64,000 nucleotides of DNA from an uncultured Actinomycetota bacterium (GTDB lineage Bacteria; Actinomycetota; Actinomycetes; JACCUZ01), in NCBI GenBank assembly GCA_963757295.1, contig CAVWQZ010000011.1, positions 36,899 to 100,898 of the forward strand. The letters run 5' to 3'. Below are positions 22,878 to 26,763 of this stretch, one piece after another (the first letter of the stretch is position 1; every line of letters begins with the position of its first letter). A model generated the notes under the pieces. That model did no database searches and had not been told where the DNA came from. It saw nothing but the letters and a program-made list of their open reading frames with translations. The position numbers and the translations under genes are program-made.

Positions 22878-23501
22878 ATGCGCAAGGTCTACGCGCTCGG
22901 CGGTCTGCACGAGGCAGATGTCGCGGCCGACCCGGTCGAGCAGTTCCGGCGGTGGTTCGACGACGCGGTGGCCGCCGGCTTGCCGGAGCCCAACGCGATG
23001 GTCCTCGCCACCAGCTCGCCGGACGGGGTGCCGTCGGCGCGGACGGTGCTGCTCAAGGGCAGCGACGGCGACGGGTTCGTCTTCTTCACCAACCGCGGCT
23101 CGGCCAAGGGGCGCGACCTGGCGGCCAACCCGCGCGCGGCGCTGGTCTTCCCGTGGCACCCGCTCGAGCGGCAGGTCCGGGTCACCGGCGAGGTGCGGCC
23201 GGTCGACGACGACGAGGCGGCGCGCTACTTCGCGACCCGGCCCCGGGAGTCGCAGCTGGGCGCCTGGGCCAGCGACCAGTCGGCGGTGATCGACGGACGC
23301 GAGGTTCTCGAGGACCGGTTCGCCGTGGCAGAGCAGCGGTGGCCGGAGGGTACGGCGGTGCCGCCGCCCCCGTCGTGGGGTGGCTACCGGGTGGTGCCCG
23401 ATGAGGTGGAGTTCTGGCAGGGCCGGGCCGGACGCATGCACGACCGGCTGCGCTACCGCCGTACCGGCGACGGCTGGGCGCTGGAGCGGCTCGCCCCTTG
23501 T
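22878..23501 (+). CDS. pdxH: Pyridoxamine 5'-phosphate oxidase; expected stop after ERLAP is missing and the ORF runs on to 23648
   Basis: EPNAMVLAT, RTVLLK, EFWQGR...HDR and ERLAP motifs. Confidence 0.92.
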
Positions 23502-23584
23502 CGAGCAGCCCCTATCCAGGATTGGATAGCCTCGAGCGTCGCTGCCGACCGCTTCAGCATCCGATCCTGTGAATGGGTCCGGAC

Positions 23585-23760
23585 AGCAGCGACCCGCGGG
23601 CCAAGTGCGCGGAGGGGACATGTCCTCTGCGGCCCGCGGGTCGGGTGACTGCCATAATTTCGCCGGCCACGACGGCCGGTGAACCGGAGTCGGCGGCTAG
23701 CTGGCAGCCACCTCACGTGTCCTAGATGTACTCAAAGTCTTGGACCACCTCCCTTCCGTG
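23585..23760 (-). ncRNA. Candidate structured small RNA with extended anti-16S element and 12-aa ORF (23697-23735, MSTSRTREVAAS)
   Basis: Own promoter; GGAAGGGAGGTGGTCCA; 11-bp stem; 13-bp terminal hairpin. Confidence 0.6.
23590..23643. terminator. Strong hairpin between pdxH and the candidate sRNA
   Basis: CGACCCGCGGGCC / GGCCCGCGGGTCG perfect 13-bp arms. Confidence 0.75.
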
Positions 23761-23766
23761 TACTCA

Positions 23767-23795
23767 ACGGTACGGCGCGGAGCCGTCCCGCACAA
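23767..23795 (-). promoter_or_regulatory. Housekeeping sigma-type promoter
   Basis: Minus strand TTGTGC-N17-TACCGT. Confidence 0.6.
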
Positions 23796-23835
23796 CGACA
23801 ATTGGCGGGCGCCGCCGATCGGCGCGACCCGCCGG

Positions 23836-24456
23836 TCAGGTCAGGACCGACGCGGCGACCCGCAGGTCGGCCACCAGCCCGGCGTACGCCGCGTCCCGGT
23901 CGTCGGCCCGCAGCACCGCCGACGGGTGGATCGTCACGAGGAACTGGCGCGGTCCCAGGCTGGTCTCCCGCTCCATCAGTGCGCCGCGGTCCTTCGTGAC
24001 CCGGATCGCGGAGCCGAGCAGCGCCTTCGTGGCGGTGGCGCCGAGGCAGACGATGACGTCCGGGTCCACGAGCCGCAGCTCCTCGACGAGCCACGGCCGG
24101 CAGGCCGTGATGTGCCGCATGTCCGGCGTCTGATGGATGCGCCGCTTGCCGGGTCCGGCCTGGGTGAACCGGAAGTGCTTGACCGCGTTGGTGCGATAGG
24201 TGACGGCGCGATCGATGCCGGCCTCGTCGATGGCCTTCACGAGCAGCCGGCCGGCCGGACCGACGAACGGCTGACCCTGGCGGTCCTCCTGGTCGCCCGG
24301 CTGCTCGCCGACCAGGACCACCCGCGCTGTCGTCGGCCCCGCGGAGAACACCGTCTGCGTCGCGTTCTCCCAGAGCTCGCAGCCCCGGCAGCCTTGGGCC
24401 GCCTCCCGCAGCTGGGTGATGCCCGCGCCCTCGGGGACGAAGTCCGCTGCGCTCAC
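23836..24456 (-). CDS. udgX: UdgX family uracil-DNA binding protein
   Basis: CRGC, GEQPG, KRRIH loop and HPSA motifs. Confidence 0.9.
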   Translation of the reverse strand: MSAADFVPEGAGITQLREAAQGCRGCELWENATQTVFSAGPTTARVVLVGEQPGDQEDRQGQPFVGPAGRLLVKAIDEAGIDRAVTYRTNAVKHFRFTQAGPGKRRIHQTPDMRHITACRPWLVEELRLVDPDVIVCLGATATKALLGSAIRVTKDRGALMERETSLGPRQFLVTIHPSAVLRADDRDAAYAGLVADLRVAASVLT

Positions 24457-25209: not shown

Positions 25210-25384
25210 CCGGGCGGACAGCCGGGGCCCGGTATGCCCGGGTTTCTGGCGTCTGACACGCCAAATGGACCCCCGGTTTGGCTGCCTATGTGATGGTCCC
25301 GTAATCTGCTCGGCGCTGCTCCGGAAACCCGGAGTGGCGCACGGCCGGCCGCCTAGTCCTGCCCCGTCCGTGCAGCACACCGAT

Positions 25385-25535
25385 TCCCGTCTGGCAGGAG
25401 CGGGGGACCCACTTTTGTGGGCCCTCAGGGGTCCTTTGGGGTGAAGCCGACTAGGTCAGGCCGTGATGGCTGACCGTGGCGGCCGGGCAACTCCCGCCCG
25501 AACCCGACAGCTCACCTCGTAGGCGTGGGAGAGGA
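25385..25535 (+). ncRNA. c-di-AMP (ydaO/yuaA) riboswitch
   Basis: GGCAGGAGCGGGGGACCC...GGGGTGAAGCC...GGCCGGGCAACTCCCGCCCGAACCCGACAGCTCACCTCGTAGGCG. Confidence 0.9.
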
Positions 25536-25542
25536 ACACGGC

Positions 25543-26381: not shown

Positions 26382-26629
26382 GCTCTGCCTGCCACCCGAC
26401 CCCCCTCCCCTCCCATCCCCGGTGATCATGCGTTCCGCGCGAACCCGCAGGAACTGCATGATGCACTGGCATATGGGTGACGGCAACCGGGTGATGTCTG
26501 CCACGTCAACCGTTGTCCGGTGGCGTTTCCGTGATCCGTTTGTGATACTTCCGGAGCCGCCTCACTCGTCGTGGGGCGGTGTTTCGCGTGTGGACGCCAA
26601 GTCCTGCCGCGCACGCGAGCTTCCTCAAC

Positions 26630-26757
26630 ATCACAACGGCAGGAGTGGGGGACCCAAGATCGGGCCCTCCGGGGCCTAGGGGTGAAGCCGCCGTACCAGG
26701 TGGCCGGGCGAACTCCCGTCCGAACCCGACAGCTGACCTCACAGGCGTGGGAGAGGG
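26630..26757 (+). ncRNA. c-di-AMP (ydaO/yuaA) riboswitch
   Basis: GGCAGGAGTGGGGGACCC...GGGGTGAAGCC...CCGAACCCGACAGCTGACCTCACAGGCG. Confidence 0.9.
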
Positions 26758-26763
26758 TTCTCG

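What the first reader, a model, noticed from the sequence alone, without database searches (positions are those of the whole stretch)
23585..23795. Stand-alone small RNA with a 17-nt complement to the 16S rRNA 3' end and a 12-codon ORF
Seen on the minus strand between udgX and pdxH, in order: a promoter TTGTGC-N17-TACCGT (23767-23795); GGAAGGGAGGTGGTCCA (23741-23757); a TTG-initiated ORF MSTSRTREVAAS* (23697-23735); an 11-bp stem GGUGGCUGCCA/UGGCAGUCACC (23702-23712 with 23644-23654) that encloses the stop codon; and a 13-bp terminal hairpin (23590-23643). TTGAGTACA occurs twice, 32 nt apart. Established: the typical actinobacterial 16S tail reverse-complements to AGAAAGGAGGTGATCCA. The element differs from this at three positions, all A>G, so all 17 nt could pair using G:U, far more than a normal 4-8 nt SD. 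No protein gene follows, so it is not a leader. Inference: a 30S-binding or ribosome-sequestering sRNA, or a micropeptide/dual-function RNA. I do not recognise it as a named family.
Basis: partly seen in the sequence, partly recalled or inferred. Interest (0 to 1): 0.85.

Follow-up and report, generated by a model that had tools for sequence, protein, structure and literature searches.

The report
Known sRNA Ms_IGR-5 with mini-ORF
This is a copy of a small RNA family already catalogued but of unknown function, whose start pairs almost perfectly with the ribosome's 16S RNA tail and is followed by a tiny conserved reading frame, and which turns out to occur well beyond the Actinobacteria it is named after.

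Summary
The element is not unnamed, though. It is a full-length member of Rfam RF02471 (Ms_IGR-5): 105.6 bits against a cut-off of 45. This scan found the same family before on other DNA (e1-5202622).

The 17-nt stretch pairs 17/17 with the host 16S tail. Apart from the 16S gene's own antisense strand, it is the strongest such site in the assembled genome. In 65 homologues it pairs 17/17 (56) or 16/17 (9), and it varies almost only A<->G opposite U.

The mini-ORF frame is conserved:
- The stop is at the same place in 65/65, as TAG, TGA or TAA.
- There are no in-frame stops in 65/65, against 43 and 58 of 65 in the other frames.
- A canonical start is present in 54/64.

The peptide itself is poorly conserved. 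Stems H1, H2 and the terminator covary. Rfam's first helix does not.

Best reading: an independently transcribed mini-mRNA/sRNA whose maximal Shine-Dalgarno loads ribosomes onto the mini-ORF. Translation, not the peptide, is what selection acts on. The output is unknown, and a pure 30S sponge is not excluded.

New here: the family also occurs in other phyla.

The parts
23790..23795 (-). -35-like hexamer TTGTGC
   Evidence: TTGNNN lies at the matching distance (-43 to -40 from the anchor) in 39 of 65 homologues. A strict sigma-70 consensus scan does not call it.
23767..23772 (-). -10-like hexamer TACCGT (TANNNT type)
   Evidence: TANNNT lies at -19 to -17 from the anchor in 42 of 65 homologues.
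23584..23761 (-). Ms_IGR-5 RNA (Rfam RF02471), full length. The inferred 5' end is the conserved ACAC at 23761-23758.
   Evidence: 105.6 bits against a gathering score of 45, model positions 1-184. My own model R1 gives 159.9 bits over 23578-23761. The 5' end is inferred from promoter spacing, not mapped.
23741..23757 (-). 17-nt complement of the 16S rRNA 3' tail (maximal Shine-Dalgarno)
   Evidence: Pairs 17/17 with the host tail, 3 of them G:U, at -29.1 kcal/mol. Only the 16S antisense strand is better in 6.46 million positions. Conserved 17/17 in 56 and 16/17 in 9 of 65.
23719..23745 (-). H1: hairpin closed by GUCC (23745-23742) and GGAC (23722-23719), with the TTG start codon inside
   Evidence: MFE fold. 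4 of 7 pairs have compensatory changes in 33 sequences. The core pairs in 94% of cells in 96 sequences. The closing stem appears in nearly all isolated-segment folds.
23697..23735 (-). 12-codon mini-ORF, TTG...TAG (MSTSRTREVAAS)
   Evidence: Stop at a fixed position in 65/65 (TAG 48, TGA 10, TAA 7). The frame is free of stops in 65/65, against 43 and 58 of 65 in the other frames. Canonical start in 54/64.
23709..23714 (-). Invariant in-ORF GAGGUG (codons 8-9), always 9 nt before the stop
   Evidence: GAG 65/65 and GTG 64/65 with no synonymous variants. In 96 sequences each base is kept in 95-96.
23702..23712 (-). H2 5' arm GGUGGCUGCCA (inside the ORF)
   Evidence: Pairs with 23644-23654. 7 of 11 pairs covary in 96 sequences.
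23655..23701 (-). H3: variable central hairpin. Its base includes the stop codon, and it is followed by a linker (GAAAUUA here).
   Evidence: base pairs GC 80/CG 7 and CG 78/GC 7. In most relatives the linker reads AAUCCCA-like; this window deviates.
23644..23654 (-). H2 3' arm UGGCAGUCACC
23590..23643 (-). Terminal (terminator) hairpin with a 13-bp basal stem
   Evidence: 8 of 10 pairs covary in 33 sequences and 10 of 10 in 96. There is no U-run here, but relatives in other phyla have one.
23804..23816 (-). Context: terminator-like hairpin ending udgX, upstream of the sRNA promoter

Best explanation
The element is a member of the Ms_IGR-5 family (Rfam RF02471). It is a ~180-nt RNA made from its own conserved promoter and ended by its own hairpin.

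Six nucleotides from its 5' end lies a 17-nt stretch that can pair with the entire single-stranded 3' tail of 16S rRNA. I read this stretch as a maximal Shine-Dalgarno sequence. It loads 30S subunits onto a start codon 3-6 nt downstream, and that start codon sits inside a small hairpin (H1). The ribosome then translates an 11-14-codon frame that always ends at the same nucleotide.

Selection acts on ribosome engagement and on the position of start and stop, not on the peptide.

Codons 8-11 form the 5' arm of a long-range stem (H2). A translating ribosome must therefore open H2 and the base of H3, which frees the conserved 3' arm and linker.

What is shown: family membership, conservation of the pairing, of the frame and of the stems. 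What is inferred: that it is translated in this organism, that translation remodels the RNA, and that the remodelled RNA, or the ribosome occupancy itself, is the output. That output could be a ribosome-dependent switch of a trans-acting RNA or a sensor of free ribosomes.
For: - Membership.
- 16S pairing. Conservation with changes almost only A<->G opposite U, and no change opposite C or A. Identical 16S tails in 5 of 5 complete relatives.
- Frame: stop at a fixed position in 65/65 using all three stop codons. 0 of 65 sequences have a stop in frame 0, against 43 and 58 of 65 in the other frames. A canonical start lies 3-6 nt after the stretch in 54 of 64, and in 19 of 19 model-found members from other phyla.
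- Peptide not conserved: codon -3 gives R 32, W 17, G 8; codon -1 gives R, C, L, P or E. GAG and GTG have no synonymous variants.
- Structure.
- Stand-alone unit: conserved promoter, separate udgX terminator, varying and often convergent neighbours.
- Literature, passages read: Ms_IGR-5 homologues carry ribosome footprints in M. abscessus and M. smegmatis Ribo-seq (PMC4974804). The RNA is validated by RNA-seq in S. lividans (PMC8079986). It is a TSS/3'-end-defined sRNA unit in S. avermitilis (PMC8780764).
- Near-identical short contigs covering essentially only the sRNA occur in metatranscriptome assemblies.
Against: - There are no expression or ribosome data for this organism. One search shows presence in RNA libraries, not a mapped transcript, and two of the four runs gave identical records.
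- Ribosome footprints on an sRNA can come from bound but non-translating ribosomes.
- 9 of 64 homologues have only CTG at the start position and 1 has no start.
- The start lies 9-12 nt from the GGAGG core. From memory, that is longer than the usual optimum.
- The 5' stretch is not predicted to be especially accessible. Mean pairing probability of its first 12 nt is 0.63 against 0.66 for the rest of the RNA, and 0.73 in this window.
- Rfam's alternative helix, which would mask the stretch, stays 93% pairable.
- No target or phenotype is known.
Confidence: 0.55

Rival explanations
1. Pure 30S-binding or sequestering RNA. The 17-nt stretch titrates or masks the anti-Shine-Dalgarno tail of free 30S subunits, for instance shifting translation towards leaderless mRNAs. 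The mini-ORF is incidental or only serves to release the ribosome.
For: The full-length pairing extends to the last nucleotide of 16S and is conserved across phyla. It is the strongest such site in the genome. A relative sits at high depth in one metatranscriptome. Ribosome footprints are reported in the literature.
Against: A sponge needs no start codon, no open frame and no fixed stop, yet all three are conserved. One gene copy per genome is found in nearly all cases, and abundance relative to ribosomes is unknown.
Confidence: 0.13
2. Micropeptide gene: the 12-residue peptide is the effector and the RNA is simply its highly translated mRNA.
For: The frame is conserved. Thr at codon -2 is kept in 60/65 using all four synonymous codons.
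Against: The N-terminal 4-6 residues and the last three are variable. Radical changes occur at codons -3 and -1. The invariant Glu-Val show no synonymous change, as expected for RNA constraint, and the AC of the Thr codon belongs to the H1 arm GGAC. Length varies from 9 to 19 codons.
Confidence: 0.1
3. Ordinary base-pairing sRNA. The 5' purine stretch is mainly structural, pairing inside the RNA as in Rfam's first helix or with an internal 16S-like segment. Its likeness to a Shine-Dalgarno and the ORF are by-products.
For: Rfam's helix is 93% pairable. In 13 of 65 members, mostly from other classes, a central segment resembling the 16S tail pairs with the stretch better than shuffles do (z < -2; examples). 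The stretch is predicted to be about as paired as the rest of the RNA.
Against: Rfam's helix has no covarying pair and scores the same as shuffled partners. The internal mimic is not significant in this window (z -0.45) or in most members. An internal partner does not explain the conserved start, open frame and stop.
Confidence: 0.12
4. Cis-acting leader or attenuator controlling a downstream gene through translation of a leader peptide.
For: A short ORF followed by stems and a terminator resembles an attenuator.
Against: Here the next gene (pdxH) is convergent. Neighbours differ between lineages, and the downstream gene is on the opposite strand in the three largest downstream clusters that are consistently on one strand. 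The terminator stem does not overlap H2 or H3.
Confidence: 0.02

Closest known systems
Rfam RF02471, Ms_IGR-5 ('Actinobacteria sRNA Ms_IGR-5'). First reported by Li et al. 2013, RNA 19:74. That paper is not held, and I saw it only as a reference entry.
   Same: Full-length match far above the cut-off. Same central and terminal helices. Intergenic, with its own promoter and terminator.
   Different: Nothing differs in kind, so this is a member. My analysis disagrees with Rfam's first helix: no covariation, whereas H1 and H2 covary. It also disagrees with the name's taxonomic limit. In the papers I could search I found no description of the 16S complement or the mini-ORF.
Dual-function (coding) small RNAs such as SgrS/SgrT, RNAIII/hld, SR1/SR1P and rnTrpL/peTrpL. 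These examples are recalled; for rnTrpL I saw only the search listing of PMC6614838.
   Same: A small stand-alone RNA with a structured 3' part and a short translated frame.
   Different: Here the peptide is barely conserved and no base-pairing target is known. The ORF is shorter than in most of these. The ribosome-binding site is extreme at 17 nt.
Extended Shine-Dalgarno sites (for example those described for Staphylococcus aureus, PMC13009471; search listing and abstract only).
   Same: Pairing with 16S beyond the GGAGG core.
   Different: Here the pairing covers the whole tail to its last nucleotide. It is the genome's extreme and serves a mini-ORF on an sRNA rather than a protein gene.
Leader-peptide attenuators (trp, erm type; recalled).
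   Same: A short ORF whose translation would reshape downstream stems.
   Different: No co-oriented downstream gene. No overlap between the terminator and alternative stems. No run of regulatory codons.
Type I toxin mRNAs with a sequestered Shine-Dalgarno (recalled).
   Same: A small ORF in a highly structured RNA. In some members an internal anti-SD-like segment is present.
   Different: The peptide is 12 residues and hydrophilic, not a membrane toxin. No antisense RNA partner was looked for.

Membership tests
Rfam RF02471 Ms_IGR-5 | Covariance-model score at or above the curated gathering score (45 bits) | tested here: met
   105.6 bits, E 9.8e-23; E 1.2e-24 on the 801-nt stretch.
Rfam RF02471 Ms_IGR-5 | Full-length match to the model | tested here: met
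   Model positions 1-184 of 184, not cut off.
Rfam RF02471 Ms_IGR-5 | Rfam consensus helices: central stem-loop and terminal hairpin | tested here: met
   Aligned with few non-canonical pairs. Both covary in 33 and in 96 sequences.
Rfam RF02471 Ms_IGR-5 | Rfam's first helix (GGUGGU with GCUGCC) | tested here: inconclusive
   93.4% pairable, but 0 covarying pairs and identical to shuffles. It conflicts with H1 and H2, which do covary.
Rfam RF02471 Ms_IGR-5 | Independent intergenic small transcript | tested here: inconclusive
   Sequence signals are met: conserved promoter, covarying terminator, udgX terminator upstream. There is no transcript map for this organism. Near-identical short contigs appear in RNA libraries. 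Relatives are validated in print.
Rfam RF02471 Ms_IGR-5 | Host within Actinobacteria | tested here: met
   Found in 108 of 151 sampled genomes of the window's class and 44 of 151 of its phylum. Named carriers of the signature include Mycobacterium, Streptomyces and Micromonospora. The family is, however, not limited to this phylum.
Dual-function (coding) sRNA | The ORF is translated | tested here: inconclusive
   Comparative evidence is strong. Ribosome footprints are reported for homologues. There are no data for this organism.
Dual-function (coding) sRNA | A base-pairing target in trans | not tested
   No target search was run.
Leader-peptide transcription attenuator | A co-oriented regulated gene directly downstream | tested here: not met
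   pdxH is convergent here. Neighbours vary and are often convergent in relatives.
Leader-peptide transcription attenuator | A terminator that competes with an alternative stem | tested here: not met
   The terminator arms do not overlap H2 or H3 in the fold or in the consensus.
Type I toxin mRNA | Hydrophobic membrane peptide of about 20 residues or more | tested here: not met
   9-14 residues in 63 of 64 (none found in 1), polar and charged.

The most novel reading that the evidence does not exclude
Ms_IGR-5 is an ancient, cross-phylum ribosome-engaging RNA. Its 5' end captures the complete 16S tail of free 30S subunits, and translation of the fixed-length mini-ORF then opens the long-range stem. 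Ribosome availability or competence would thus be converted into exposure of the conserved linker and 3' arm, which act in trans. Alternatively, occupancy of 30S tails itself would shift the balance between SD-led and leaderless translation. The RNA would then be a general sensor or regulator of the translation apparatus rather than an ordinary target-specific sRNA.
Probability: 0.2. Interest if true: 0.85.

Novelty: new member of a known kind. Interest (0 to 1): 0.5.

Why it matters
Ms_IGR-5 is one of very few small RNAs conserved across most Actinomycetes, including model and medically relevant genera. Here it is also found in Acidobacteriota, in the phylum holding an Ignavibacteria-labelled MAG, and sporadically elsewhere. 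No function has been published for it in what I could search.

Three properties turn an anonymous catalogue entry into a concrete, testable hypothesis about ribosome engagement: it carries the strongest possible ribosome-docking sequence in the genome, a mini-ORF conserved as a frame but not as a peptide, and a stem that translation must open.

There are practical consequences too. Rfam's first helix and its taxonomic label probably need revision. Genome annotators will keep flagging this locus as a 'novel' sORF/sRNA unless the link is made.

Tried and rejected
- **Internal 16S-tail mimic or pseudoknot in this window.** The best duplex of the 5' stretch with downstream sequence is no better than shuffles (z -0.45; 29 of 100 shuffles as good). 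It is significant only in 13 of 65 members.
- **A free, accessible 5' docking tail.** Not supported by ensemble folding.
- **TTGAGTACA repeat as a functional element.** Not conserved.
- **Cis-leader reading.** Rejected.
- **Strict sigma-70 consensus scan.** Found no promoter. The promoter argument rests on conservation.
- **Global MAFFT plus RNAalifold on 65 diverse sequences.** Gave almost no structure, so I replaced it with class-level and model-based alignments.
- **First neighbour clustering.** Confounded by spurious high-GC ORFs. I redid it with a codon-position GC filter.
- **First genome-wide 16S scan.** Used a tail register 2 nt short. Redone.
- **Literature.**
  - Li et al. 2013 is not held.
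  - My recollection that S. coelicolor scr4389 is this RNA could not be verified and is not used.
  - No hits for guessed M. tuberculosis names, peptide fragments or the motif.
- **Read laying.**
  - Stretches without cover, contig ends and depth cannot show the transcript's ends or level.
  - X2 and X4 gave identical records and may not be independent.
  - One contig runs 19 nt past the inferred 5' end into unlike sequence.
- **Earlier-findings look-ups.** The look-up by place returned nothing.

Full report
**1. What is there**

- A TTGTGC-N17-TACCGT promoter-like pair.
- The 17-mer GGAAGGGAGGTGGTCCA (23757-23741).
- A TTG-initiated 12-codon frame ending in TAG (23735-23697).
- An 11-bp long-range stem (23712-23702 with 23654-23644).
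- A 13-bp terminal hairpin (23643-23590).

The flanking genes are a UdgX-family gene and pdxH. pdxH is convergent. The RNA folds with MFE -94.9 kcal/mol and z -4.03 against shuffles. udgX has its own terminator-like hairpin at 23816-23804, just upstream of the promoter.

**2. It is a named family**

A gathering-threshold scan of the window against Rfam gives a full-length match to RF02471, Ms_IGR-5. The match covers 23584-23761 on the minus strand at 105.6 bits against a cut-off of 45 (alignment).

In the papers I could search, the name or accession occurs in three. I read the matching passages only:
- It is listed as RNA-seq-validated in S. lividans (PMC8079986).
- It is one of two Rfam-matched sRNA transcription units with mapped ends in S. 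avermitilis (PMC8780764).

The founding paper (Li et al. 2013) is not held. An earlier follow-up of this scan on another genome (e1-5202622) reached the same identification and a similar reading. I saw it only after searches had given me mine.

**3. The 16S complement is real and selected**

The host 16S gene ends ...GGATCACCTCCTTTCT. The 17-mer pairs with the last 17 nt at every position, three of them as G:U.

I scanned all 6.46 million positions of the assembled genome (3.23 Mb, 66.7% complete). Only two pair 17/17: the antisense strand of the 16S gene and this site. Its duplex energy is -29.1 kcal/mol; the next site has -24.9. An earlier run, used a wrong register. Chance alone would give 0.54 such sites per genome, so the argument rests on conservation.

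In 65 homologues, 56 pair 17/17 and 9 pair 16/17. This set is the window's own copy plus 64 loci from the window's phylum, with three loci of unpublished genomes left out. The substitution pattern is informative:
- The seven positions opposite a U vary almost only between A and G.
- Positions opposite C or A never change.
- The position opposite G is C 63, U 2.

That is the pattern expected for a constraint to pair with the whole tail. In the wider set of 96 the counts are 81, 14 and 1 (15/17). The same 16-nt tail is present in 5 of 5 complete relatives.

**4. The mini-ORF is conserved as a frame, not as a peptide**

I anchored on the invariant GAGGUG.
- **Stop:** a stop codon lies exactly 15 nt after its first base in 65 of 65 (TAG 48, TGA 10, TAA 7). 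An earlier count gave 64 of 64.
- **Open frame:** between the 17-mer and GAGGUG, frame 0 has no stop in 65 of 65. 43 and 58 of 65 have stops in the other two frames.
- **Start:** an in-frame canonical start lies 3-6 nt after the stretch in 54 of 64 (TTG 30, ATG 20, GTG 4). 9 have only CTG there and 1 has none.
- **Length:** 12 codons (34), 13 (22), 14 (5), 9 (2).
- **Peptide:** it is variable. Codon -3 is NGG, giving R 32, W 17, G 8, with S 4, E 2 and A 2 from other codons. Codon -1 gives R 46, C 7, L 7, P 4, E 1. The last three codons vary.
- **Synonymous sites:** GAG (65/65) and GTG (64/65) show no synonymous change. From memory, GTC is the commoner Val codon in high-GC genomes. So nucleotides and frame are constrained, and the amino-acid sequence hardly is.

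**5. Structure**

I first used 33 class-level sequences (A1). My structure consists of H1 closing around the start codon, H2, the base of H3 and the terminator.
- It pairs in 87.6% of cells, against 30-45% when partners are slid.
- 17 pairs have compensatory changes, against 10.5 in shuffles; 0 of 500 shuffles reach the observed value.
- Rfam's first helix, which conflicts with H1 and H2, is 93% pairable but has no covarying pair and equals its shuffles.

I built a covariance model from A1 (R1). It recovered 96 of 98 sources as full-length matches. On that alignment:
- 26 of 33 pairs covary.
- H2 has 7 of 11 covarying pairs and the terminator 10 of 10.
- The covariation score is 0.381 against 0.136 in shuffles (0 of 500).

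This alignment is fitted to the model and leans towards its structure.

**6. A stand-alone unit**

- A TANNNT box lies 17-19 nt upstream of the anchor in 42 of 65, and TTGNNN lies at -40 to -43 in 39 of 65.
- This places the start at the conserved ACAC, six nucleotides before the 17-mer. That is an inference, not a mapped end.
- Neighbouring genes differ between lineages: pdxH, citrate synthase, LmeA, GlnR, a GcvT-like gene, a THAP4-type haem-binding protein, a class IV aminotransferase and MDMPI. The clusters include three unpublished loci.
- The gene downstream is often convergent.

**7. Expression evidence for this sequence**

Contigs from four metatranscriptome runs of four studies were laid on 23300-24300.
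- Short contigs cover 23617-23763 (X2 and X4, 1 difference in 147) and 23608-23742 (X5, 1 difference, adapters at both ends).
- X3 has a more divergent 23623-23803 contig and an 82-nt contig of a relative at depth about 155.
- This shows presence in RNA libraries only.
- X2 and X4 gave identical records, and one contig continues 19 nt beyond the inferred 5' end.

**8. Results against my reading**

- The 5' stretch is not predicted to be unusually free. Pairing probability is 0.63 for its first 12 nt against 0.66 for the rest, and 0.73 in this window.
- Some distant members carry a central segment resembling the 16S tail that could mask the stretch. This is significant in 13 of 65, but not here.
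- 10 of 64 lack a canonical start.
- Ribosome footprints do not prove translation.

**9. Distribution: wider than the name**

Rfam's model finds the family in 108 of 151 sampled genomes of the window's class (107 over the cut-off). In the phylum sample it finds 44 of 151 (20 over the cut-off). These tallies include 6 and 4 unpublished genomes; without them the counts are 102 of 145 and 40 of 147. None of the 14 control genomes matched.

- Named carriers include Mycobacterium, Streptomyces, Micromonospora, Nocardioides, Amycolatopsis, Cellulomonas, Acidimicrobiia and Thermoleophilia.
- It also hit contigs of MAGs labelled Blastocatellia (2), Terriglobales, Polarisedimenticolia, Ignavibacteria, Syntrophobacter, Thermodesulfobacteriota and Fibrobacteraceae, and more in the full list.
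- The bare pattern could occur some tens of times by chance in 596 Gb. That is my estimate.
- Even so, all 8 contigs examined also have a consensus-like promoter, an in-frame canonical start, a true stop and the 3' arm.

Searching relatives directly gave these results:

| Sample | Model | Genomes with a match |
|---|---|---|
| Phylum of a Blastocatellia-labelled MAG (Acidobacteriota by NCBI taxonomy) | R1 | 8 of 151 |
| Same phylum | Rfam | 8 of 151, none over the cut-off |
| Phylum of the Syntrophobacter-labelled MAG | R1 | 2 of 151 |
| Phylum of the Ignavibacteria-labelled MAG | R1 | 50 of 151 |
| Class of the Ignavibacteria-labelled MAG | Rfam | 22 of 151, 11 over the cut-off |

- In the Acidobacteriota sample, 6 of 7 full-length loci have the full architecture and 1 is false.
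- Twelve loci from the sample have locus GC 0.36-0.59 and one has 0.66. Some lie on multi-megabase contigs. All thirteen show the full architecture with classic U-tailed terminators.
- 9 of 11 tested pass Rfam's own cut-off, and no other Rfam family matches them.
- In three of five such genomes the identical 16S tail is present, and the RNA's 5' stretch is among its nearest other matches genome-wide at 1-2 mismatches.

The wider range may already be visible in Rfam's full-region lists, which I could not consult. I found it in no paper.

**10. Verdict**

The most likely mechanism is a maximal Shine-Dalgarno that loads ribosomes onto a mini-ORF whose translation, rather than its product, matters. 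It probably works by opening the long-range stem (confidence 0.55). A pure 30S sponge (0.13), an internal structural role of the stretch (0.12), a functional micropeptide (0.10) and a cis leader (0.02) are the rivals.

Noticed in passing
window 23499-23648 (+): The pdxH reading frame does not stop after the usual C-terminal ...ERLAP. It runs 49 codons further, antisense through the sRNA's terminator and H2 3' arm. In 8 of 8 relatives with a convergent pdxH the stop follows ERLAP directly. This could be a lost stop codon or an assembly error.
   Followed up: partly
L071, L073, L099, L111, L129/L198, L130, L143, L144, L190-L195, L199, L201-L212: The family occurs outside Actinomycetota with its full architecture. 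R1 finds it in 8 of 151 sampled genomes of the phylum of a Blastocatellia-labelled MAG, 50 of 151 of the phylum of an Ignavibacteria-labelled MAG, and 2 of 151 of the phylum of a Syntrophobacter-labelled MAG. Rfam's name says 'Actinobacteria'.
   Followed up: partly
L011, L021, L028, L029, L031, L058, L062, L064, L065, L067 and others (central region): In 13 of 65 members, mostly from other classes, the variable central region holds a segment resembling the 16S 3' tail. It pairs with the RNA's own 5' stretch better than shuffles do. It is not significant in this window.
   Followed up: partly
window 23655-23661 (-): The single-stranded linker before the H2 3' arm reads GAAAUUA here. Most of the 96 aligned relatives have an AAUCCCA-like motif that is conserved across phyla.
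   Followed up: no
window 25368-25538 (+) and 26608-26762 (+): Two c-di-AMP riboswitch aptamers (RF00379, 74.1 and 59 bits) lie within 1.3 kb of each other. The genes they precede were not examined.
   Followed up: no
It is most likely chance.
   Followed up: yes
G021 and G260: Two genomes give two matches to the family each. All the others give one.
   Followed up: no
runs X2 and X4 on window 23617-23763: Two metatranscriptome runs from different studies yield contigs of identical length, identical differences and identical loose ends over the sRNA and other stretches. They may share data or a common source and should not be counted as independent.
   Followed up: no
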